Origin: a virus
Length of the DNA stretch: 64,000 bases
Reading direction: 5' to 3' (one strand)
IMG/VR virus record: IMGVR_UViG_3300034358_000044
Location: 32,001-96,000 of that record
The translations under genes were made by a program, and so were the position numbers. The notes beneath the pieces were generated by a model. That model did not search any database and was not told where the DNA came from. It saw only the letters and a program-made list of their open reading frames with translations. Positions within the stretch are counted from its first letter, which is position 1, and every line of letters starts with the position of its first letter. Of this stretch, positions 5,649-57,086 are shown in pieces.

Positions 5649-7283
5649 TCAGACCTGAACGGAGCGTCCAGAGGCGGAAGGCGGAGGGACGGCCACCTCG
5701 GGGGTGTTGGCCGGGCGGGTACGGCGCTCGCACCAACGACGGATGGCGTCGATCTTCTCCTTCATCGTCTTGGACAGGGGGTTGGTGCTGTCGAAGCTGT
5801 GCTGCAGGTCGAAGTCGTTGAGGTCCTTCTCCCCATCGAATGCTGCGTACATGGCGTCGTTGATGGCTGCCTCGATCTCTGCCCCGGTGAAGCCTTCGGT
5901 GGTCTCCCCAGCGAAGTGGTCGAGCTTGATCTTCCCGCTCATGATGAGGTGACCACGGTTCTTCTTCTTGATGTGAATCTCCAGGATTTCCTTCCGCTCA
6001 GCCTGGTTGGGGAGATCCACCGAGAACATCTCGTCGAAGCGGCCCTTCCGAAGGAGCTCGGGAGGGATGCCGGTGACGTCGTTGGCCGTGGCGAACACGA
6101 ACACCGGGCTCTTCTTCTCCTGCATCCAGGTGAGGATGGTACCCATCACGCGGGCTCCCACACCAGAGTCCAGGTTGCCTGCCCCGCTGCCGGCAGTGCC
6201 CTTCTCGATTTCGTCCACCCACAGGATGCAGGGGCTGATGGTCTCTGCCACCTGCAGGGCGTTGCGGATGTTGGCCTCTGACTGCCCCACCAGGCTCCCG
6301 AACATCTTGCCCATGTCGAGGCGCAGGAGGGGCATGGCGAGCTCACTGGAGGCAGCCTTGGCCGTCAGGGACTTCCCGCAGCCGGGAGGCCCCACGAGGA
6401 TGATGCCCTTCGGAGCAGGCAGCCCGAAGTCCTTGGCCTTCTGGGTGAAGGCGTTCTTCCGCTTGGAGAGCCAGCTCTTGAGGTTCTGCAGGCCTCCGAC
6501 GTCCTTCAGGCCCGAGGGGGAGACCGGGATGTACTCCAGCAACCCCGTCTTCTTCAGCGCCTGGCACTTCTCCTCCATGACGATGCGGGGGTCCCAGATG
6601 TCCTTGCTCTTGGCGATGCGAGGACGGATGAGGGAGAGCGACAGTGCGTTCTCAGCCTCGCTGGTGGTGAGACCCAAGGCCGCCTCGATGAGCTCCTCCT
6701 TGCGCCCCTCGGAGGGCACCATGTCCCCCTTGAGCTGAGAGCCCTCGATGATGCCGTTCAGCACGTCGTGGAGCTGCTGCTCTCCGGGGAGCTGCGTCTC
6801 CACCAGGGCGAACTCCTTCTCCAGCTCCATCGGCAGCTTGGAGACCGGGGTGAGGACGACCAGCATGCGCTGCGTCATCTTGTACTCCGGGATGATGTCC
6901 AGCAGCAGCGACTGCACCAACGGGTCATCCAGGAAGTGGTGGAAGAGGCGCAGCACCACGATGGACTTGCTGGGGATGACGTACCGCTTGTCCTTCGCCT
7001 TCGGATCCACCACGCCGGTGAGGGCGTTGAGCAACCCAGGTGGGAGCTCGGTGTCCGCGATGGGGTCCTTCTTGCCGTCCTCCAGGATGCCCTTGCCGAA
7101 GGTCCAGGTGAACAGCTTGCGGTCCAGCTCGTGGGCCGCAGACTGAATCTCCTTCTGGCTCCTCATGTCCTCGGCGGACACGAGGTAGAGCGCGGCGTAG
7201 CCGGCCCGAGCCTTCTCGAAGATGGTCCTGGCGGTTGCTGGCTTCTCTTCCTTCTTCAGCGTGTCCTTCTTCTCATCAGCCAT
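5649..7283 (-). CDS. Ycf46-like AAA+ ATPase
   Basis: Walker A GPPGCGKS, Walker B LWVDEIEK, ATAN sensor, LLRKGRFDE Arg finger, DVGGLQNLKSWL. Confidence 0.9.
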   Translation of the reverse strand: MADEKKDTLKKEEKPATARTIFEKARAGYAALYLVSAEDMRSQKEIQSAAHELDRKLFTWTFGKGILEDGKKDPIADTELPPGLLNALTGVVDPKAKDKRYVIPSKSIVVLRLFHHFLDDPLVQSLLLDIIPEYKMTQRMLVVLTPVSKLPMELEKEFALVETQLPGEQQLHDVLNGIIEGSQLKGDMVPSEGRKEELIEAALGLTTSEAENALSLSLIRPRIAKSKDIWDPRIVMEEKCQALKKTGLLEYIPVSPSGLKDVGGLQNLKSWLSKRKNAFTQKAKDFGLPAPKGIILVGPPGCGKSLTAKAASSELAMPLLRLDMGKMFGSLVGQSEANIRNALQVAETISPCILWVDEIEKGTAGSGAGNLDSGVGARVMGTILTWMQEKKSPVFVFATANDVTGIPPELLRKGRFDEMFSVDLPNQAERKEILEIHIKKKNRGHLIMSGKIKLDHFAGETTEGFTGAEIEAAINDAMYAAFDGEKDLNDFDLQHSFDSTNPLSKTMKEKIDAIRRWCERRTRPANTPEVAVPPPSASGRSVQV

Positions 7284-8753: not shown

Positions 8754-9425
8754 TCATTCTGGCTCATCATCCCCTATTTCGACGTGTCTGCGAAACGTAA
8801 TCGTGTCGTTCTTCTTGGGTGATTCTTTCGGTGGAGGAGGCTTCCGTACAGGTCGTACAGGCTCTCCCCTCCATACTGGAGCGGGTCGGTTCGCCTTGTC
8901 CTGCAGGAGGCCCATCTCGATCTCCATGGCGAGGTTCCAAATCTCTCGTGGGAGGGAAAGTTGGTAGACCCCTTTGCCAGTCTGCACAGCTTTCTGCTGG
9001 GCATAGCGGACACACGACGCGGTCCCTCCGCTGTTCTGACCGTCCCACACCGCAAGAAGAGCATCGCTGTGGTCTACCATCCATGCGTTGCGGTCGTGGA
9101 GAAGCTGGGGGCTGTAGTATCCCTCACTGAGAGTCACGACGCTGGCTGCCTCTTGCAGGAGCATGTTGTAGTGCTGTCTGGATCTCATGGGCCACTTCGA
9201 GTCGTAGCCCTCGAAAGGAACGATGGCGTCGAATGGTATCTTCATCCTGATGCAGAGGGAGGCGACCCATTGGTCAGTGCCAAGAGCCATTCCAGTGAGT
9301 ACCTTGTCGATCTTCAGGACACCGAAGGACTCCTCCAGCTTCTGCATCACCGCGTTGTAGATAGGATTCGGAATGTTGTAGCCACCGAGCCGAGAAGGCC
9401 GATGGCCGGTGACTGCGAGGATCAT
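8754..9425 (-). CDS. SLOG superfamily protein (YspA/DUF1273-like)
   Basis: AVTGHRP, TGMALGTDQW, RNAWMVDHSDALLAVWDG..GGTASCV. Confidence 0.9.
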   Translation of the reverse strand: MILAVTGHRPSRLGGYNIPNPIYNAVMQKLEESFGVLKIDKVLTGMALGTDQWVASLCIRMKIPFDAIVPFEGYDSKWPMRSRQHYNMLLQEAASVVTLSEGYYSPQLLHDRNAWMVDHSDALLAVWDGQNSGGTASCVRYAQQKAVQTGKGVYQLSLPREIWNLAMEIEMGLLQDKANRPAPVWRGEPVRPVRKPPPPKESPKKNDTITFRRHVEIGDDEPE

Positions 9426-51029: not shown

Positions 51030-51333
51030 CTACTGCATCGACCATCCTGAGATTCGGTACATGCCGGCGGCCACCGACTGCCTGCCGGACCCGCCTCCCA
51101 GGGAGTGGCCTGTCGAGGCCACGGTGGATGCAACCTGCCCGGCCAACTTCGCCCTGTGCCTACAGGTAGACGCAGGACTGTCCCTGGAGCACAACCTGCT
51201 GGCCCTCAGGCGCTACTCCACAGAGGCCTGGGCCAGGTGTGGGGCTTCCGTCCCTGATGCCGGGGCTGGAGATGCTGGGGTTGCTGGGGCTGTTGATGCT
51301 GGCCGACTGGACGCTGGCTCAGGGGCCCGGTAG
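50977..51333 (+). CDS. o-spanin lipoprotein (Rz1-like)
   Basis: lipobox VSVGC; Pro-rich segment; overlaps the i-spanin 3' end in another frame. Confidence 0.65.
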   Translation: MILSLFVSVSVGCSLCRDYCIDHPEIRYMPAATDCLPDPPPREWPVEATVDATCPANFALCLQVDAGLSLEHNLLALRRYSTEAWARCGASVPDAGAGDAGVAGAVDAGRLDAGSGAR

Positions 51334-51753
51334 AAGGCTGATGGAGCTCGACGAGGAGAGGAAGGGGCTGGCGAAGAGCAGCTCCTCCACCTTCTGAATC
51401 AGCGCAATGCGTCGTAGGGGCTTCTCCATCACCACGGTGGCCCCGGCCTGAACCGCCTCCTGCTGGAGCTGCATGGATCCAGCAGTGATGGCGATGATGG
51501 GGATGGCCCCGAACTCCAGAGTGCCTCTGAGCTTCTTGATGAGCTGGATGCCACTCATCTTGGGCAACATCAGGTCTGTAATGATGAAGCCTGGCTGGAC
51601 CTTCTGGCAGAGATCCCATCCTGCCTCTCCGTCCATCGCCGTGAAGACCTGGTACTGGTCTCCCTCCATCGCGAAGAAGTCAGAAATCATCTTGCCGATG
51701 AGCTCTTCGTCATCGACAACAACCATCTTGAGAGTGGCCGGCTTCTGCGGCAT
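51319..51753 (-). CDS. single-domain response regulator receiver (CheY-like)
   Basis: VVDDE, ITDLMLPKMSG (phospho-Asp), AITA, EKP. Confidence 0.92.
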   Translation of the reverse strand: MPQKPATLKMVVVDDEELIGKMISDFFAMEGDQYQVFTAMDGEAGWDLCQKVQPGFIITDLMLPKMSGIQLIKKLRGTLEFGAIPIIAITAGSMQLQQEAVQAGATVVMEKPLRRIALIQKVEELLFASPFLSSSSSISLLPGP

Positions 51754-51860: not shown

Positions 51861-53492
51861 CTACCCGGTGACGAAGCTGTTCATCACCGTGGGGACGTCA
51901 GTCGAGAAGCCGACCACGTCCAGCATACCGGCATCGTTGGGGTCGGCGATGGTGAACCCGTTGCTCACCATGCCGCAGACGATGAGCTTGGCATCGATGC
52001 CAGTCTCCTGCCGGTACTGACGCAGCGCCTGGAACGGGTGGACCACCCCAGCGTACGTCTCTGAGTCCGTGTAGATCACGAACACGTCCACCTTCAGCTT
52101 CTCCTTGAGAGCGTACTGCATGGGGAGAGAGCAGTCGGTGGTCCCGAAGGGGATGTCCGAGATGGACCTGACCGCCTCGGGGAGCTTCATCTTCGGGGAC
52201 AGCTTGAGGGGCTTCAGCTGCGTCCCGGAGCCCCAGAGCCCGGAGCTGCCGCCGACCCCGAAGCCCACGATGTGGTGCCATGGCTCGGTCCTGGCCGTCA
52301 CCAGCGACATGGCGGCCGAGGCGTCCCTGGGGGTCAGGTTCGAGCCCGCGACGGAGCCGCCCGACATGGACCCCGAGACGTCGAGAGCCAGCAGGTAGCG
52401 CTTGCCGGTGGGCACGATGGTGTCGAAGGCCATGTAGAAGGCCTCGTCCAGCGCATCGACCACGTTGCTGTCGGGATTCCACGACAGGCTGCCCTTGAGG
52501 CCGTGCCCTGAGCTGTAGGTGCTCTGGGCCATCAGCAGGGCCATGGGGTGGATCCTGGCCTTCCTGAGGGCTTCCTTGTCCCCCAGGCGGGCAGCCACGA
52601 AGTGGGAGGCGTCGGAGAGGGGCTTGATGAGGCCGATCTCCGTCATCTTGCCCAGGTTGCGCACCATGGCGGTCAGCGGCATGCCATTGCCCGAGGTCAA
52701 GAGGGCGTCCCAGACCTTGACCGAGTTCAGCATCTGGGTGGGCACGCACTCCCTGGGCAGGTTGTAGTCCGTGATGAGCTGGACCATCTCGGTGTCCTTG
52801 GTGACCACCTTGGCCATCTCGAAGCCCCGGATGAGGGCGGGCACGAGCGGCTGGGCGGACTGCTCCGCCGGCAGCTTGCCGACCGCCCACTGGTAGCTCA
52901 GCTTCTGGACTTCGCTCTTCGGCTTGGGCTTCGCCTTCCGGAGGATGTCCCGGTGCGACCAGCCGTTCCGGCTCTGGTACTTCACCAGGTTGAGGGCGAG
53001 CGAGTCGGGCTGCTGGTTCTCGTACCAGCGGGTGAAGCCCCTCTTGGTGACGCGGCCCCAGCCACCCAGCTCCTTCACCGCCTCCGCCATCTGGAAGAGG
53101 TGAGTCCCGATGCGGCAGACCTGAGGGATGGAAGCCGAGGCCAGACGGCGCGTCTCGACGTCGCCCTCCTTCAACGCCAACGCGAGGGCGAAGATGGCAG
53201 GGTCGTTCTTGGGCGCCTTGCCCCCGCTGCTCACGTCGATGATGAGGTTGATGGCCTTCCCGCCATCTTCCTTGATGCACTCGACGACGCTGGCAGCGTT
53301 CTCCTGGGTCAGCTTCTTCTCCGAGGCGTAGTACGACCCGCCTTCAGAGCCCAGGATGAGGAACCGCTTGAAGCGTGTCCACTTGTCAGCGGCGAAGACG
53401 AAGCCACCTGCGGAGTTCTTCACCTGCGCCATGCCCGGAACCGGTTCGGTCTGGACGGTCTTCTTCGTTGAAACGTGCTTCCCGTAGTTCAT
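51861..53492 (-). CDS. rsr: Ro60/Rsr RNA-binding protein (TROVE + vWA)
   Basis: NSAGGFVF, RFLILGSEGGSYY, KYQSRNGWSHRD, AMVRNLGKM, IHP, MIDAS DVSGSM, GTTDCSLPM, YTDSET, GMLDVVGF; GGGAGG SD. Confidence 0.97.
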   Translation of the reverse strand: MNYGKHVSTKKTVQTEPVPGMAQVKNSAGGFVFAADKWTRFKRFLILGSEGGSYYASEKKLTQENAASVVECIKEDGGKAINLIIDVSSGGKAPKNDPAIFALALALKEGDVETRRLASASIPQVCRIGTHLFQMAEAVKELGGWGRVTKRGFTRWYENQQPDSLALNLVKYQSRNGWSHRDILRKAKPKPKSEVQKLSYQWAVGKLPAEQSAQPLVPALIRGFEMAKVVTKDTEMVQLITDYNLPRECVPTQMLNSVKVWDALLTSGNGMPLTAMVRNLGKMTEIGLIKPLSDASHFVAARLGDKEALRKARIHPMALLMAQSTYSSGHGLKGSLSWNPDSNVVDALDEAFYMAFDTIVPTGKRYLLALDVSGSMSGGSVAGSNLTPRDASAAMSLVTARTEPWHHIVGFGVGGSSGLWGSGTQLKPLKLSPKMKLPEAVRSISDIPFGTTDCSLPMQYALKEKLKVDVFVIYTDSETYAGVVHPFQALRQYRQETGIDAKLIVCGMVSNGFTIADPNDAGMLDVVGFSTDVPTVMNSFVTG

Positions 53493-53565
53493 GTTGCCTC
53501 CCATTCAGCTCGTGAATCCCACGAGCAAGGAACCGCGACTCTGACGGTGAAACGTTCAGCTCCTG
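53493..53565 (-). promoter_or_regulatory. Y-RNA-like Ro60-binding helix in the rsr leader with two alternative pairings
   Basis: CUUGCUCGUG can pair with upstream CAGGAGC-UGAA or downstream CACGAGC-UGAA, which is 1 nt before the SD. Confidence 0.6.
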
Positions 53566-54089
53566 AACGCCTTGGTGTTTCTCTGGGCCGCGAGAGCGAC
53601 CCCTGCTGCAGAAGCGGCCAGATTCAGGGAGGGCCTGACGTTCTCCCTCTCCTGCTCCAAGGCTTCCAGTCTGTTCGAGACGTGGATGAGCTGCTCGGCC
53701 AGGCTCTCGTACTCCTCGCGGGAGACGTAGGATTTCCTTGCCTGCTGCTTCACCAACTCCTTCATCCCCTTGCGGAACTCCTTACCTTGGTCGGAGTTCG
53801 AGAGGGCGGCGAAGAGGATCATGTCGTCTTCGGACCAGACGTGCATGTCGGCCCTGAGATACTTCAACTGAAAGGTCTCTCGGTTCTGCTGGAGAAACGA
53901 AATTGCGCCAATGTCGTTGGCGCAATTGCCGTCGAACTCGTCCCGGTGATTGAGGTAGACGTTCCTGAGGTTTCTCTCAGTGACGCCCAACACACCGGAG
54001 AGAACAGAGCCCGTAGTGAACAGGGTCCCGTCCTCGTCCTCCATCATGGGGACATTCAGATTGTTGAACTGCCAGGTCATCAGTCGCAT
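53556..54089 (-). CDS. phage antirepressor-like DNA-binding protein (ORF6N/Bro-N/KilA-N-like) with coiled coil
   Basis: F-x-TG..LS..LGV...LR...NH.DEF; VWSEDDMI..A..S.S; GGAG SD. Confidence 0.6.
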   Translation of the reverse strand: MRLMTWQFNNLNVPMMEDEDGTLFTTGSVLSGVLGVTERNLRNVYLNHRDEFDGNCANDIGAISFLQQNRETFQLKYLRADMHVWSEDDMILFAALSNSDQGKEFRKGMKELVKQQARKSYVSREEYESLAEQLIHVSNRLEALEQERENVRPSLNLAASAAGVALAAQRNTKAFRS

Positions 54090-54110
54090 GCGTTCTCCTT
54101 CAAGGGGGAT

Positions 54111-54142
54111 AAAAAAAGAGGCCCCCACTCTCATGGGAGCCC
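54111..54142 (-). terminator. intrinsic terminator closing the Y RNA array
   Basis: GGGCTCCC-ATGAGAGT-GGGGGCC followed by TCTTTTTTT, directly after Y4. Confidence 0.75.
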
Positions 54143-54332
54143 ACGGGCAAGACGATGCTGCTCTAGGCGGGAGGTGGACATCCCTTGCGGGTACCTCGTC
54201 CGTTTCCCTACGAGACTCCCAGCAATCAGAGTCTGGGAACTATTCAGTCAAGAGCGCCGGATTGGCGATGCCCTCGAACTTGGCAACTCTCAGCCCAAGC
54301 TCTTTTCGGGTAACCTAGAACCATCAGCCCGC
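54143..54332 (-). ncRNA. Y RNA-like Y4 (190 nt, multi-branched effector domain)
   Basis: GCGGGC-UGAU / CUU-GCCCGU end helix; GUUCUAGG/CCUAGAGC second stem; GGUUAC; internal hairpins including one with GUUCGA. Confidence 0.7.
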
Positions 54333-54342
54333 TTCAAAAGAA

Positions 54343-54428
54343 GAGTGAACAAGAAGTGAAACTCGGTGGGACCCTTTTGATCGGGTCCAGCGTTTTGGGC
54401 TGGAGAACCAAGTCTCTTCGGCTCACTC
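54343..54428 (-). ncRNA. Y RNA-like Y3 (86 nt)
   Basis: GAGUGAGC-CGAA / CUU-GUUCACUC; GAGACUUGGU/ACCGAGUUUC; two apical hairpins. Confidence 0.75.
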
Positions 54429-54435
54429 AAGAAAA

Positions 54436-54501
54436 GTACGAGCAAGGTTGTGAATGACGGAATCTTTTTATGGTAGGTAACCGTCACTCGTCAGCTCGTA
54501 C
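54436..54501 (-). ncRNA. Y RNA-like Y2 (66 nt, minimal)
   Basis: GUACGAGC-UGAC / CUU-GCUCGUAC; GAGUGACGG/CCGUCAUUC; UUACC loop. Confidence 0.75.
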
Positions 54502-54509
54502 AAAGAAAA

Positions 54510-54573
54510 TGGCGAACAAGAATTTAACCAGGGGTATGTTTTCCGTGGATAACCCTAGAGCGTCAGCTCGCCA
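54510..54573 (-). ncRNA. Y RNA-like Y1 (64 nt, minimal)
   Basis: UGGCGAGC-UGAC / CUU-GUUCGCCA; CUAGGG/CCCUGG; UUAUC loop. Confidence 0.72.
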
Positions 54574-54605
54574 AAAGCTGTGGGATAGATTTCATCCCTG
54601 TAAAA

Positions 54606-54617
54606 CCTTATGCCGAA
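54606..54617 (-). promoter_or_regulatory. candidate promoter motif TTCGGCATAAGG upstream of the Y RNA array
   Basis: exact match to the motif at 3338; 33 nt upstream of Y1. Confidence 0.5.
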
Positions 54618-54648
54618 CTTCTTCGGACTTTTGAATAGCAGTGGTGAA

Positions 54649-54722
54649 CGTCCTCGGTGAGACTCGAACTCACTACCCATTTCTTAGAAGGAAATTGCTC
54701 TATCCAGATGAGCTACGAGGAC
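54649..54722 (-). tRNA. tRNA-Arg(UCU)
   Basis: cloverleaf; anticodon loop CTTCTAA. Confidence 0.92.
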
Positions 54723-54724
54723 AG

Positions 54725-54810
54725 TGGAAGACTGAGGACTCGAACCTCAACCCCTTGCGGAATCGCACGGTTTAGCAAACCGGCCAGGGACCTCCCCTGG
54801 TTAGCCTTCC
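54725..54810 (-). tRNA. tRNA-Ser(GCU)
   Basis: loop TTGCTAA; long variable arm. Confidence 0.9.
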
Positions 54811-54815
54811 AACAG

Positions 54816-54899
54816 CGGAGAGAGGAGGATTCGAACCTCGGCCGACTTGCATCAACCAGCAGCTTTCCAAGCTGCCTCCTGACCATCAGGTCACTCTCC
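54816..54899 (-). tRNA. tRNA-Ser(GGA)
   Basis: loop TTGGAAA; long variable arm. Confidence 0.9.
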
Positions 54900-54903
54900 A
54901 AAG

Positions 54904-54989
54904 CGGAAGACGGAGGTATCGAACCCCACACCCTTACAGGAGCGCACTCGTTTCGAGCGAGGCCTGGTCCCATGACCAGTTCATCTTCC
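54904..54989 (-). tRNA. tRNA-Ser(CGA)
   Basis: loop CTCGAAA; long variable arm. Confidence 0.9.
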
Positions 54990-54992
54990 AAA

Positions 54993-55072
54993 GCTCCCCC
55001 CAGATGCGCCCTGGAGGACCGGCGGGGCCTGTAGGTTCCCTGAGCCCCTAGCTGTCGCCAGTTCGTGAGCTC
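54993..55072 (-). ncRNA. unidentified multi-stem RNA between Ser tRNAs
   Basis: nested stems GAGCU/AGCUU, ACUGGC/GCCGGU, GGGGC/GCCCC, CCAG/CUGG. Confidence 0.4.
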
Positions 55073-55081
55073 AGAGTACAG

Positions 55082-55166
55082 CGGAGGGCGGAGGTATCGA
55101 TCCCCACACCGTTTCGGGTGTCATCAGTTTTCAAGGCTGCGTCGCTTCCCAAGCGATTCACCCTCC
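55082..55166 (-). tRNA. tRNA-Ser(UGA)
   Basis: loop CTTGAAA; long variable arm; 3-bp core anticodon stem. Confidence 0.85.
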
Positions 55167-55711
55167 TAGTCAGATTCCAGCTCCCCGTTCCAGTAGGAGA
55201 CATCCCGGAGCCAGTTCTTCCAGCTTTCCGGCATGCCCTTCCTGAACGTGAAGGTCAGCCTCATCGTGTCCGGCAACTTCTTGGGACGCACCGGAGTAGA
55301 GAACAGCTTCATGCCGGCCTGCTCAGGTGTACGTCCGCCCTTCTTCTGGTTGCAGGGCACGCAAGCGATGACGATGTTCTCCCACCGAGTCTGACCGCCA
55401 TGCGCCCGGGGAACGACATGGTCGTAGGTGGACTCCTGCCTGGGCACCTTGGAGTGGCAGTACTGGCAGCGACCTTGGTCCCTCGTGTAGACGTTCTCAC
55501 GAGAGAACTTGATGGCCCTCTTCTTCCCGATGATGCGCTTCAGGAAGCGAATGACGGAAGGCACCTTGAACTCCAGGGTGACAGAACGGACGGTCCAGTC
55601 CTCGTACTCCTCGACGATCTCGACCTTGTTCTCCCAGAGAAGCGTGATGGCCCGTTGCCAAGGGATCCTGGCCACCGGCTCAAATGATTGCGACAATACC
55701 AGCGTGTCCAT
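55166..55711 (-). CDS. HNH endonuclease (McrA-like)
   Basis: FSRENVYTRDQGRCQYC, TYDHVVPR..GG..WENIVIACVPCN.KK. Confidence 0.92.
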   Translation of the reverse strand: MDTLVLSQSFEPVARIPWQRAITLLWENKVEIVEEYEDWTVRSVTLEFKVPSVIRFLKRIIGKKRAIKFSRENVYTRDQGRCQYCHSKVPRQESTYDHVVPRAHGGQTRWENIVIACVPCNQKKGGRTPEQAGMKLFSTPVRPKKLPDTMRLTFTFRKGMPESWKNWLRDVSYWNGELESD

Positions 55712-55738
55712 GACCAGCCTCCTTTGACTACGAGTGTG

Positions 55739-55817
55739 TGCCCCAGGAGGGAATCGAACCCTCATGCCGAAGCAGTGGATTTTGAATCCACCGTGTCTAC
55801 CGTTCCACCACCGGGGC
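55739..55817 (-). tRNA. tRNA-Leu(CAA)
   Basis: loop TTCAAAA. Confidence 0.92.
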
Positions 55818-55823
55818 CCTACT

Positions 55824-55905
55824 TGGATGAAGAGGGACTCGAACCCTCATGAGCAAGCTCGCCGGCTTCTAGGGCCGGAGTGTCTACCAGTTCCACCATT
55901 CATCC
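55824..55905 (-). tRNA. tRNA-Leu(UAG)
   Basis: loop CCTAGAA. Confidence 0.88.
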
Positions 55906-55908
55906 ATG

Positions 55909-55991
55909 TGATCGAGAAGGGACTTGAACCCTTACGGTGTTACCCGCCTGCCCCTCAAGCAGGTGCGTCTACCAATTTCCGCCACTCGATC
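55909..55991 (-). tRNA. tRNA-Leu(GAG)
   Basis: loop TTGAGGG. Confidence 0.92.
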
Positions 55992-55995
55992 AATG

Positions 55996-56078
55996 TGCCC
56001 AGAGCGAGAATCGAACTCGCACGGTTTTACCCGCCAGACTCTGAATCTGGTGCGTCTACCAAGTTTCGCCACCTGGGC
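55996..56078 (-). tRNA. tRNA-Leu(CAG)
   Basis: loop TTCAGAG. Confidence 0.92.
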
Positions 56079-56083
56079 AACTG

Positions 56084-56155
56084 TACTGGCAGAGGGATTC
56101 GGACCCCCGACATCTTGGGTGTAGGCCAAGCGCTCTACCTCTGAGCTATGCCAGC
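56084..56155 (-). tRNA. tRNA-Val(UAC)
   Basis: loop CCTACAC; T-loop TCCGAAT. Confidence 0.88.
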
Positions 56156-56217
56156 ATGTTGAGGACTTGGTAGCGCAAGTTGCCTCTGAACCTCTTCCCT
56201 TTCGGGTGCTACGGGTG

Positions 56218-56288
56218 TCGTGAGTGACAGAGTTGAACTGTCCTTCCAGGCTTATGAGGCCCGTGTCTTACCGATAGACGAACTCACG
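56218..56288 (-). tRNA. tRNA-Met(CAU), probably elongator
   Basis: loop CTCATAA; C1:G72 paired. Confidence 0.8.
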
Positions 56289-56297
56289 TACTGCACA

Positions 56298-56371
<74 letters not shown>

Positions 56372-56372
56372 A

Positions 56373-56445
56373 CGCTCTTGGAGGGATTCGAACCCCCGAC
56401 TTCCTCTTTAGGAAAGAGGCGGTCTATCCACTGACGTACAAGAGC
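56373..56445 (-). tRNA. tRNA-Arg(CCU)
   Basis: loop TTCCTAA. Confidence 0.92.
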
Positions 56446-56450
56446 AACAG

Positions 56451-56522
56451 CGCCCTGCCGAGGAGTTGAACCTCGCACTATCCCAGGTTCGTAGCCTGAG
56501 GTCTGGATCCGCCAGGCAGGGC
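56451..56522 (-). tRNA. tRNA-Arg(ACG), non-canonical D-arm
   Basis: loop CTACGAA; D-stem abuts acceptor; D-loop CGGAT. Confidence 0.75.
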
Positions 56523-56525
56523 ATG

Positions 56526-56594
56526 AGCCCTATCGGAGAGTTGAACTCCATCTTTCGCCTTCGGAGGGCGAAGTCCAGATCCGCTGGATAGGGC
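56526..56594 (-). tRNA. tRNA-Arg(CCG), non-canonical D-arm
   Basis: loop CTCCGAA; D-stem abuts acceptor; D-loop CGGAT. Confidence 0.75.
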
Positions 56595-56792
56595 CTACTT
56601 CTTTCTACTTCTCGGAGAGGCTCTTGGTTTGGGGACCAGAGTAGGCCCGTCGTAGCCGATACCGGCTTCCAAGAGGCGCTCCAGACGCATCCATTTCTCT
56701 CTGTCGTAGCCGTCTGTTCCGACGTCACGAGTCCAAAGCTCGTGGAAGAGCACTCGTGCTTCTGCCTTCTCTTCTTTTTTCAAGCGGTGCAT
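56595..56792 (-). CDS. small hypothetical protein
   Basis: 65-aa ORF exactly filling the gap between tRNAs. Confidence 0.55.
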   Translation of the reverse strand: MHRLKKEEKAEARVLFHELWTRDVGTDGYDREKWMRLERLLEAGIGYDGPTLVPKPRASPRSRKK

Positions 56793-56795
56793 GAG

Positions 56796-56867
56796 TGCTC
56801 CCGATGGGAATCGAACCCAATGCCTCGTCCTTACCAAGGACGTGCTCTGCCGTAGAGCTACAGGAGC
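56796..56867 (-). tRNA. tRNA-Thr(GGU)
   Basis: loop TTGGTAA. Confidence 0.92.
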
Positions 56868-57086
56868 GTACTACAGGTAGCTGACACACTTGCCTTTGGG
56901 AGGTGGTGGTCCGTCTGGTGTTCTGCCCCGTGCCATGGATGGCATCCGAACTCCGTGCTTTGTTCGGCGTCGTCTTTTCCCGTGTGTCGGAAGGTGAGGT
57001 GCATCACGTACTTCCTCCCCTGGATCCACCGGGGAGGCGTCTGTATGAGCCGTGGGCACGCCTCACTTGCTACTAGTCCGGCTACC

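What the first reader, a model, noticed from the sequence alone, without database searches (positions are those of the whole stretch)
54143..54573. Tandem array of four Y-RNA-like genes upstream of a phage Ro60 (six Y RNAs in total)
Seen: four consecutive hairpin genes of 64, 66, 86 and 190 nt, separated by short spacers, with a candidate promoter in front and a terminator behind. Each has a 6-8-bp end helix ending GRGC, then YGAN opposite CUU, a second 6-10-bp stem, and a GUU(A/C)(C/U)C loop start. The stems differ in sequence but keep pairing, which is covariation visible within this window. Established: this bulged helix and UUAUC-like loop match the Ro60-binding module of Y RNAs (human hY1 GGUC-CGAAG/CUU-GAC), and bacterial Y RNAs tether or gate Ro60. 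Inference: one phage Ro60 is partitioned among six RNAs with different effector loops (minimal, two-hairpin, multi-branch, tRNA mimic). This would be a modular RNP toolkit for recruiting different host or phage enzymes during infection. Phage Ro60/YrlA pairs are known, but an array of this size and diversity appears unusual.
Basis: partly seen in the sequence, partly recalled or inferred. Interest (0 to 1): 0.92.

Follow-up and report, generated by a model that had tools for sequence, protein, structure and literature searches.

The report
Phage Y RNA array beside Ro60
An uncultured 196-kb peat phage encodes four small Y RNA genes in a row (six in total) next to its Ro60 gene; they are almost certainly genuine Ro60 partner RNAs, but such arrays turn out to be common beside Ro60 in phages and bacteria, so this one is large rather than unique.

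Summary
Confirmed. Four head-to-tail units (64, 66, 86, 190 nt; minus strand, 54573-54143) sit between a 41-gene tRNA array and a strong terminator, 0.6-1.1 kb upstream of an intact Ro60 (TROVE+vWA). Two YrlA-type tRNA mimics with the same handle lie inside the tRNA array. All share end helix, GRGC-YGA opposite CUU-GYYC, second stem and a UUAYC loop start. A descriptor finds exactly these six in the 196-kb genome (1.3 expected). A covariance model trained without Y3-Y6 recovers Y3 (E=8e-9) and Y6. In 161 other Ro60 loci it gives 215 matches, all on the Ro60 strand, with compensatory changes at 16 of 17 pairs. Rfam has no model for the short class.

The rarity claim is overstated. 13 of 81 other viral loci have three or more units, one has six in tandem, and bacterial loci reach five. 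This scan also noted handle-plus-cargo RNA arrays on other phage DNA, beside Ro60-like DUF2828 genes with a different handle. No sigma-70-like promoter was found, and expression and binding are untested.

Unusual here: U replaces the bulged C in four of six units (rare elsewhere), unit 4 has an orphan 150-nt domain, and the array is fused to a tRNA array. The near-invariant UUAUC equals the loop motif of animal Y RNAs and nematode sbRNAs.

The parts
54510..54573 (-). Y1: 64-nt minimal hairpin Y RNA (8-bp end helix, GAGC-UGA / CUU-GUUC, 6-bp stem 2, loop starts UUAUC)
   Evidence: R1 53.8 bits
54436..54501 (-). Y2: 66-nt minimal hairpin Y RNA (8-bp end helix, GAGC-UGA / CUU-GCUC, 9-bp stem 2, loop starts UUACC)
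   Evidence: R1 54.1 bits; fold z = -4.6
54343..54428 (-). Y3: 86-nt Y RNA with canonical GCCGAAG motif, 9-10-bp stem 2, loop start UUCUC and two small apical hairpins
   Evidence: Held out of model R1 and recovered at 43.9 bits, E=8e-9; fold z = -4.6
54143..54332 (-). Y4: 190-nt Y RNA; 6-bp end helix GCGGGC/GCCCGU, UGA/CUU, 8-9-bp stem 2, UUACC, then a ~150-nt multi-branch domain without tRNA-like features and without relatives
   Evidence: Descriptor hit. Weak R2 match, 11.6 bits, E=0.28, at 54143-54334: same 3' end as the descriptor, 5' end 2 nt beyond it. No Rfam tRNA or YrlA hit; no BLAST relatives in 160 loci. Weakest of the six.
54109..54142 (-). Intrinsic terminator closing the array (10-bp G+C-rich stem, then a T-run)
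54574..54647 (-). 74-nt spacer between tRNA-Arg(UCU) and Y1; two small hairpins; no terminator and no sigma-70-like promoter detected
57819..57944 (-). Y5: 126-nt YrlA-type tRNA mimic (same handle, GCCGAAG; T arm, capped acceptor-like stem, D arm); starts 1 nt after tRNA-Val(GAC)
   Evidence: Rfam YrlA 36 bits, E=7e-7, below the 69-bit cut-off; R2 21.6 bits
60344..60476 (-). Y6: 133-nt YrlA-type tRNA mimic (GGGC-UGA handle); starts 1 nt after tRNA-Pro(UGG)
   Evidence: R2 31.8 bits, E=5e-6; 19 of 23 identity to M. smegmatis YrlA 5' half; BLAST hits upstream of Ro60 in many loci
51861..53504 (-). Ro60/Rsr gene (547 aa; TROVE + Ro60 vWA domain, MIDAS DxSxS conserved)
   Evidence: Pfam E=1e-39 and 5e-64; NCBIfam Rsr E=2e-158; alignment invariants
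53556..54089 (-). 177-aa ORF between the array and Ro60 (RBS GAAGGAG; function unknown; weak Ant-like PHROG hit); not conserved beside Ro60 elsewhere
54648..63307 (-). Co-oriented array of 41 tRNA genes that runs into the Y RNA array and contains Y5 and Y6

Best explanation
The four units are genuine Y RNA genes, non-coding partner RNAs of the phage's own Ro60. Shown here: they belong to a large, covariation-supported RNA family that sits beside Ro60 genes, always on the Ro60 strand, in many phages and bacteria. The family's handle matches the published Ro60-contact motif. Inferred: the four are transcribed as the tail of the co-oriented tRNA array, or from an unrecognised promoter, and transcription stops at the terminator behind unit 4. 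Host endonucleases cut the 7-10-nt U-rich spacers. Y5 and Y6 are released by the tRNA-processing enzymes that cut their tRNA neighbours. Ro60 binds the GRGC-YGA/CUU-GYYC bulged helix of each RNA. The RNA then gates the Ro60 ring and, through its variable apical module, links Ro60 to different host partners. PNPase is the documented precedent. The biological role is probably remodelling of RNA decay or quality control during infection, possibly as counter-defence.
For: Ro60 gene is intact. The six units are the only descriptor hits in the genome, against 1.27 expected. Model R1, trained without Y3-Y6, recovers Y3 at E=8e-9 and Y6 at E=7e-5. With R2 the six best hits in the region are exactly the six units, and a whole-genome scan adds nothing. 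In independent loci there are 104 matches in 81 viral loci and 111 in 80 bacterial loci, all on the Ro60 strand and mostly within 1 kb of the gene. Covariation: 89.5% of cells paired against 59% in shuffles and about 45% when slid; 16 of 17 pairs show compensatory changes. The family consensus GGGCCGAA / CUUGCCC resembles GGUCCGA, which Ro60 contacts, and the GNCGAAN0-1G motif (PMC4201824). Y5 best matches Rfam YrlA. Y6 is 19 of 23 identical to Rsr-bound M. smegmatis YrlA. A minor strain variant differs at 8 substitutions and 3 indels, none in a stem. Terminator behind the array, and no minus-strand terminator before it. No Pfam match for any ORF across the array. Precedents: M. smegmatis YrlA and YrlB are cut from one precursor (PMC4201824); phage phiLo Ro60 binds two upstream Yrl RNAs and host PNPase (PMC12135203); the Ro60-like gp130 of phage Bas63, next to its tRNA genes, counters a defence system (10.1101/2024.10.10.617714).
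Against: There is no expression or binding data for this uncultured phage. Four of the six units carry U where 102 of 107 family members, and the published motif, have C, so their affinity for Ro60 is uncertain. Y4 is supported only by the descriptor, its position and a weak R2 score, and its fold z-score is only -1.75. No Rfam Y RNA model matches Y1-Y4. The covariation alignment was fitted to the model, which favours the structure. The phage encodes no RtcB, CCA-adding enzyme or RNA ligase, so any effector must be a host protein that I cannot identify.
Confidence: 0.8

Rival explanations
1. Multivalent scaffold: the ~430-nt array is not cut into units. It acts as one RNA that carries four Ro60 handles and assembles several Ro60 rings into a higher-order particle.
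For: Spacers are only 7-10 nt, and a single terminator follows unit 4. phiLo Ro60 forms higher-order and dimeric RNPs with its Yrl RNAs (PMC12135203). Y4 contains a second, nested GGGCUGA motif at 54296.
Against: M. smegmatis YrlA and YrlB are processed from a single precursor into separate RNAs (PMC4201824). Each unit closes on its own end helix. Spacers are single-stranded and U-rich, typical of endonuclease sites. In other loci, units occur singly or widely spaced.
Confidence: 0.12
2. Gates or sponges rather than adaptors: the minimal units Y1 and Y2 recruit nothing. They occupy and stabilise Ro60, or titrate it, and set how much free Ro60 is available. Only the larger units carry effector modules.
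For: Y1 and Y2 have only a 19-20-nt A-rich loop beyond the conserved UUAYC. This minimal class is the commonest form in other loci. In D. radiodurans, bound Y RNA blocks Rsr-dependent rRNA maturation (PMC4201824). A Y-like handle in the Ro60 leader hints at dosage control.
Against: The A-rich loop is moderately conserved across the family (columns 48-52), which suggests it is itself a binding site. This reading overlaps with the best explanation rather than excluding it.
Confidence: 0.3
3. Not Ro60-related: the hairpins are processing signals, attenuators or terminators of the tRNA operon that resemble Y RNAs by chance.
For: They sit at the 3' end of a tRNA array. Each end helix is followed by a U-rich run. 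No Rfam Y RNA model matches Y1-Y4.
Against: The same module accompanies Ro60 in 161 other loci with perfect strand bias, most of them without tRNA arrays. The invariant single-stranded GC-YGA, CUUG and UUAUC are not needed for a terminator.
Confidence: 0.03

Closest known systems
Bacterial YrlA/YrlB with Rsr (S. Typhimurium, M. smegmatis; Chen et al. 2014, PMC4201824; Rfam RF02553)
   Same: Encoded next to Ro60 on the same strand. GNCGAAN0-1G motif near the 5' end (exact in Y3 and Y5). One tRNA-like class (Y5, Y6) plus hairpin-type RNAs. Several RNAs cut from one precursor. Y6 is 19 of 23 identical to M. smegmatis YrlA.
   Different: Six units rather than two. Both strands of the handle are conserved (GC-YGA / CUU-G), whereas only the 5' strand is recognisable in the Salmonella and M. 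smegmatis RNAs. Four units have U for the bulged C. Y1-Y4 lack the tRNA-like domain and match no Rfam model. Y5 scores 36 bits against a 69-bit cut-off.
Thermus phage phiLo Ro60 with Yrl1/Yrl2 (PMC12135203)
   Same: Phage-encoded Ro60 with stem-bulge-stem Y-like RNAs carrying a CGAA motif directly upstream of the gene. The likely partner is a host enzyme (PNPase), which the phage does not encode.
   Different: Two RNAs against six. No tRNA array. Binding and a cryo-EM structure exist for phiLo and none here.
Vertebrate Y RNAs and nematode stem-bulge RNAs (PMC4726728, PMC4450293; Rfam RF00019)
   Same: Same blueprint: lower stem with a bulged pyrimidine (GGUCCGA / CUUGAC type), an upper stem, and UUAUC at the 5' end of the loop. 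Several paralogues per genome with different loops.
   Different: No match to RF00019 even at E<=10. No conserved upper-stem replication motif, since stem 2 varies freely. Not Pol III genes. Homology against convergence on Ro60 recognition is unresolved.
D. radiodurans Yrn1/Yrn2 and the Ro60-Y RNA-PNPase (RYPER) machine
   Same: Several small RNAs upstream of rsr. Both strands of the Ro-binding helix are retained. This is the model for the gate-and-tether mechanism proposed here.
   Different: No sequence similarity tested or found. The partner enzyme here is unknown.
Ro60-like gp130 of E. coli phage Bas63 (PhageMaP preprint, 10.1101/2024.10.10.617714)
   Same: A phage Ro60-type gene adjacent to the phage's tRNA genes, some of which the authors suspect are Y RNAs. 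It offers a functional lead: countering the 'ppl' defence system.
   Different: gp130 is Ro60-like by structure only. No Y RNAs were defined there. No defence link has been tested for this phage.

Membership tests
Y RNA (Ro60/Rsr partner RNA, criteria of Chen et al. 2014) | Encoded within about 4 kb of a Ro60 orthologue, on the same strand | tested here: met
   Y1-Y4 lie 0.64-1.07 kb upstream of Ro60 (51861-53504) on the minus strand. Y5 and Y6 are on the same strand but 4.3 and 6.8 kb away.
Y RNA (Ro60/Rsr partner RNA, criteria of Chen et al. 2014) | 5' and 3' ends pair into a helix that carries the Ro60-contact motif (GNCGAAN0-1G; vertebrate GGUCCGA) | tested here: met
   All six have the end helix. 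Y3 and Y5 read GCCGAAG, an exact match.
Y RNA (Ro60/Rsr partner RNA, criteria of Chen et al. 2014) | C at the bulged position of the motif | tested here: inconclusive
   Y1, Y2, Y4 and Y6 have U (GCUGA). C is present in 102 of 107 family members. Whether U is tolerated by this Ro60 is unknown.
Y RNA (Ro60/Rsr partner RNA, criteria of Chen et al. 2014) | Conserved secondary structure supported by compensatory changes | tested here: met
   16 of 17 pairs have changes on both sides; 89.5% paired against 59% shuffled and 45% slid; 7 of 9 stem-1 pairs on the unfitted MAFFT alignment.
Y RNA (Ro60/Rsr partner RNA, criteria of Chen et al. 2014) | Physically bound by Ro60 and present as a discrete stable small RNA | not testable with these tools
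   Uncultured phage; only DNA runs are available.
YrlA (Rfam RF02553) | tRNA-like domain: T arm, capped acceptor-like stem, D arm | tested here: not met
   Y1-Y4 have no YrlA or tRNA match at E<=10, so the four units of the finding are not YrlA. Y5 and Y6 do have the domain.
YrlA (Rfam RF02553) | Score at or above Rfam's gathering cut-off (69 bits) | tested here: not met
   Y5 scores 36 bits, E=7e-7, full model coverage. No unit reached the cut-off in the whole-window scan.
Metazoan Y RNA / sbRNA (Rfam RF00019; Kowalski et al. 2015) | Lower stem with bulge, upper stem, UUAUC at the 5' end of the loop | tested here: met
   Loop starts UUAUC, UUACC, UUCUC or UUACC in Y1-Y4. Family consensus U107 U107 A101 U83/C19 C106 of 107. 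The motif is described in PMC4450293 and PMC4726728.
Metazoan Y RNA / sbRNA (Rfam RF00019; Kowalski et al. 2015) | Match to the Rfam Y_RNA model; conserved upper-stem A/GUG-CAC/U motif | tested here: not met
   No RF00019 match at E<=10, even in 93-nt and 541-nt searches. Stem-2 columns vary freely apart from the closing G-C pairs.
YrlB-type hairpin Y RNA (Chen et al. [quoted passage not shown] | Simple long hairpin without a tRNA-like domain; small pyrimidine-rich loop | tested here: inconclusive
   Y1 and Y2 are simple bulged hairpins, but beyond UUAYC their 19-20-nt loops are A-rich. The M. smegmatis YrlB probe region begins UAUC.

The most novel reading that the evidence does not exclude
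The GG-UUAUC junction may be a second, so far unrecognised determinant of the Ro60 particle, conserved from phages and bacteria to animals. That would make these short prokaryotic Y RNAs true homologues of animal Y RNAs and nematode sbRNAs. In this phage, six adaptors would then form a counter-defence or RNA-decay toolkit co-expressed with a full tRNA set. Four of them carry a rare U-bulge handle and one carries an orphan 150-nt domain.
Probability: 0.25. Interest if true: 0.85.

Novelty: new variant of a known kind. Interest (0 to 1): 0.6.

Why it matters
Y RNAs are thought to decide what the Ro60 ring does, but few prokaryotic Y RNAs have been characterised experimentally (D. radiodurans, Salmonella, M. 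smegmatis, phage phiLo), and only the tRNA-like YrlA class is catalogued. This locus led to a short hairpin class that is absent from Rfam. That class accompanies Ro60 in phages and in many bacterial phyla, often in arrays of 3-6 units with different apical modules. Reviews state that bacterial Y RNAs are not homologous to vertebrate ones (PMC4726728). Yet this class carries all three structural hallmarks of animal Y RNAs, including the UUAUC motif that has so far been linked only to DNA replication assays. That makes two questions testable: does UUAUC belong to the Ro60 particle, and what does each adaptor recruit? Cultured phages carry the same units: clearly in Catera/Bxz1 on M. smegmatis, and as weak candidates (E 0.09-0.37) in Sixama on Gordonia.

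Tried and rejected
- Rfam at gathering and at E<=10 gave nothing for Y1-Y4.
- The sigma-70 promoter scan found none.
- MAFFT plus RNAalifold missed stem 2 because of register shifts. This was solved by a given structure and Infernal realignment.
- R1 could not span Y4 or Y5. R2 improved this, but Y4 stays weak.
- Public runs: no RNA holder is listed; all holders are peat metagenome DNA.
- The single-protein IMG/VR scan and the metagenome scan found no relative of this phage closer than 47-51% Ro60 identity, so there is no ortholog-level covariation for Y4.
- BLAST of Y4's apical domain and of the tRNA-Y1 spacer against 160 loci and the phage's own genome gave no relatives.
- The ORFs that overlap the array have no Pfam hits, so a coding reading was rejected.
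- The 177/192-aa ORF is not conserved beside Ro60 elsewhere, so it was rejected as a conserved partner.
- RtcB, CCA-adding enzyme and RNA ligase are absent from the phage.
- The review PMC10870794 is not held.
- Complex prediction was not used, because it handles protein pairs only.

Full report
**Setting.** The window is bases 32001-96000 of a 195,735-bp IMG/VR virus record that CheckV rates complete. The DNA is found only in peat metagenome runs. On the minus strand the order is: a 41-gene tRNA array (54648-63307), the region of the finding, a 177/192-aa ORF, then a 547-aa Ro60. The Ro60 has TROVE (E=1e-39), the Ro60 vWA domain (E=5e-64) and an NCBIfam Rsr match (E=2e-158). The closest Ro60 in GenBank phages is about 44% identical.

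**Observation.**
- It also returned two further units inside the tRNA array, at 57944-57819 and 60476-60344.
- All six share one layout: an end helix of 6-8 bp ending GAGC or GGGC; UGA or CGA; 1-4 linker bases; a second stem of 6-10 bp; a loop that starts UUAUC, UUACC or UUCUC; a 4-8-nt linker; CUU; and the 3' strand of the end helix.
- The stems differ in sequence between units but stay paired.
- Spacers between units 1-4 are UUUUCUUU, UUUUCUU and UUCUUUUGAA.
- A strong intrinsic terminator follows unit 4 directly.
- No sigma-70-like promoter was found in front, and there is no minus-strand terminator between tRNA-Arg(UCU) and unit 1. Co-transcription with the tRNA array is therefore the simplest reading.
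- ORFs that overlap the array have no Pfam match.

**Chance.** A structural descriptor that does not use the loop motif finds exactly these six on both strands of the whole genome. Thirty dinucleotide shuffles give 1.27 on average. The descriptor was derived from these units, so the real test is on independent DNA.

**Independent loci.**
- I fetched 81 other viral Ro60 loci. The descriptor gave 29 hits on the Ro60 strand and 3 on the other.
- Twenty of the 29 start their loop with exactly UUA[UC]C, against a background of 0.8%. None of the 3 opposite-strand hits does.
- Eighteen short units (Y1, Y2 and 16 from other phages) align cleanly, and 7 of 9 stem-1 pairs show compensatory changes.
- Model R1, built from them, recovered the held-out Y3 at 43.9 bits, E=8e-9, with no other hit in the 64-kb window apart from a partial one on Y6.
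- With filters off, R1 recovered held-out Y6 full length (E=7e-5) and Y5 weakly.
- Across the 81 viral loci R1 found 104 matches, all on the Ro60 strand. Across 80 bacterial Ro60 loci from Myxococcota, Chloroflexota, Verrucomicrobiota, Armatimonadota, Alphaproteobacteria and others it found 111, again all on the Ro60 strand.
- On the realigned set, 89.5% of cells are paired, against 59% in shuffles and about 45% when slid. Sixteen of 17 pairs have changes on both sides. That alignment is fitted to the model, which favours the structure.
- Model R2, built from all 107 matches, ranks the six units as the six best hits in 53300-63500 (Y4 last, 11.6 bits). Its Y4 match spans 54143-54334: the 3' end coincides with the descriptor's and the 5' end lies 2 nt beyond it. 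A whole-genome scan adds nothing.

**Links to known Y RNAs.**
- The family consensus is GGGCCGAA ... GG-UUAUC ... A-C-UU-GCCC.
- Chen et al. 2014 (PMC4201824) give GNCGAAN0-1G as the bacterial motif and GGUCCGA as the sequence contacted by X. laevis Ro60. Y3 and Y5 read GCCGAAG.
- Y5's best Rfam match is YrlA, with full model coverage, 36 bits, E=7e-7, below the 69-bit cut-off.
- Y6 is 19 of 23 identical to the 5' half of Rsr-bound M. smegmatis YrlA, as deduced from the published probe, starting at UUACC.
- Y5 and Y6 also match stretches upstream of Ro60 in many loci, including mycobacteriophage Catera.
- Y1-Y4 have no tRNA-like domain and match no Rfam family. They are Y RNAs of a hairpin or other class, not YrlA.

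**UUAUC.** This pentamer at the 5' end of the loop is almost as conserved as the Ro60 motif (U 107, U 107, A 101, U/C 102, C 106 of 107). Kowalski et al. 2015 (PMC4450293) and Kowalski and Krude 2015 (PMC4726728) describe the same pentamer at the same position as a hallmark of nematode sbRNAs and vertebrate Y RNAs, and they link it to replication assays. I found no paper that notes it in prokaryotic or phage Y RNAs. Its presence beside Ro60 in phages suggests a role tied to Ro60. That is inference.

**How unusual is the array?** Counts are lower bounds, because the models miss long units. Units within 3 kb of Ro60 in the 81 other viral loci: none in 29 loci, one in 18, two in 21, three in 6, four in 5, five in 1 (L004, tandem) and six in 1 (L032, tandem). 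Bacterial loci reach five (L102). Long units elsewhere are mostly YrlA-like and share the same GG-UUAUC junction. Four in tandem, six in total, is therefore at the upper end of a recurring architecture. Earlier notes of this scan report comparable handle-plus-cargo arrays beside Ro60-like DUF2828 genes in other phages, with a different handle. I did not test those.

**What is particular here.**
1. U replaces the bulged C in Y1, Y2, Y4 and Y6. Only 5 of 107 family members have U, and at least two of those are from this window.
2. Y4's roughly 150-nt apical domain has no tRNA-like features and no relatives. It contains a nested GGGCUGA.
3. The array is fused to a tRNA array. Y5 and Y6 start 1 nt after tRNA-Val and tRNA-Pro, so tRNA-processing enzymes probably define their ends. 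Gordonia phage Sixama has weak R1 candidates inside its own tRNA array.
4. A minor strain variant in the source sample differs at 8 substitutions and 3 indels across Y1 and Y2, all outside stems. This is weak evidence, because it rests on one contig at depth 3.

**Mechanism.**
- Shown: family membership, structure, linkage to Ro60, and the terminator.
- Inferred: co-transcription with the tRNAs; cleavage in the U-rich spacers (precedent: M. smegmatis YrlA and YrlB come from one precursor, PMC4201824); Ro60 binding at the handle; gating and tethering to host partners (precedents: the D. radiodurans RYPER machine, and phiLo Ro60 with host PNPase, PMC12135203).
- The phage has no RtcB, CCA-adding enzyme or RNA ligase.
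- A counter-defence role is suggested by phage Bas63 gp130 (10.1101/2024.10.10.617714), but it is untested here.

**Verdict.** The Y RNA reading is well supported computationally. The claim of rarity is overstated. The function is unproven. I rate this a new variant of a known kind, of moderate interest.

Noticed in passing
window 53505-53566 (-): The Ro60 leader carries two copies of the 5' handle motif (GGAGCUGAA at 53562, CACGAGCUGAA at 53511) and one CUUGCUCGUG (53529), next to the GGGAGG ribosome-binding site. R1 gives a weak match (11.5 bits). Ro60 may bind its own mRNA.
   Followed up: partly
window 55166-55765 (-); L097:8461-9159, L143, L131, L146 and others: The 199-aa HNH endonuclease inside the tRNA array has full-length homologues at 48-50% identity, 1-3 kb downstream of Ro60 on the same strand, in many Myxococcota loci. 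Weaker homologues occur in Verrucomicrobiota loci. In L097 and L094 the order is Ro60, Y RNAs, HNH. This may be a conserved Ro60-Y RNA-HNH neighbourhood.
   Followed up: partly
window 51319-51753 (-): A 144-aa stand-alone response-regulator receiver domain is encoded just downstream of Ro60 on the same strand.
   Followed up: no
window 54296 (-), inside Y4: Y4 contains a second, nested GGGCUGA motif that could pair alternatively with the same 3' CUUGCCC.
   Followed up: no
window 54724-54810 (-) and 54990-55165 (-): ARAGORN calls an odd tRNA with a two-base anticodon at 54724-54810. Rfam scores this and its two Ser neighbours as weak tRNA-Sec-like. By eye, the unannotated stretch after tRNA-Ser(CGA) looks like a further long-arm tRNA.
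   Followed up: no
window 60125-60343 (-): A 219-nt stretch between Y6 and tRNA-Pro(GGG) has no tRNA, no Y-type match and no relatives. Its content is unknown.
   Followed up: partly
L032:8859-9578: An IMG/VR phage has six tandem units downstream of its Ro60. One (9018-9158) has the D arm before the T arm, the normal tRNA order, unlike the permuted order of YrlA.
   Followed up: partly
L007:5575-5647 and 5851-5920 (Mycobacterium phage Catera); L005:8519-8592 and 9089-9163 (Gordonia phage Sixama): The cultured phage Catera has two unannotated R1-type short units flanking its YrlA region upstream of Ro60 (E=4e-6 and 3e-4). Sixama has weak candidates (E=0.09 and 0.37) inside its tRNA array.
   Followed up: partly
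window 54415-54584: A minor variant contig (depth about 3) in the probable source run differs from the window at 8 listed substitutions and 3 indels, all in loops, linkers or spacers of Y1 and Y2. Two of them convert Y2's UUACC to UUCUC.
   Followed up: yes
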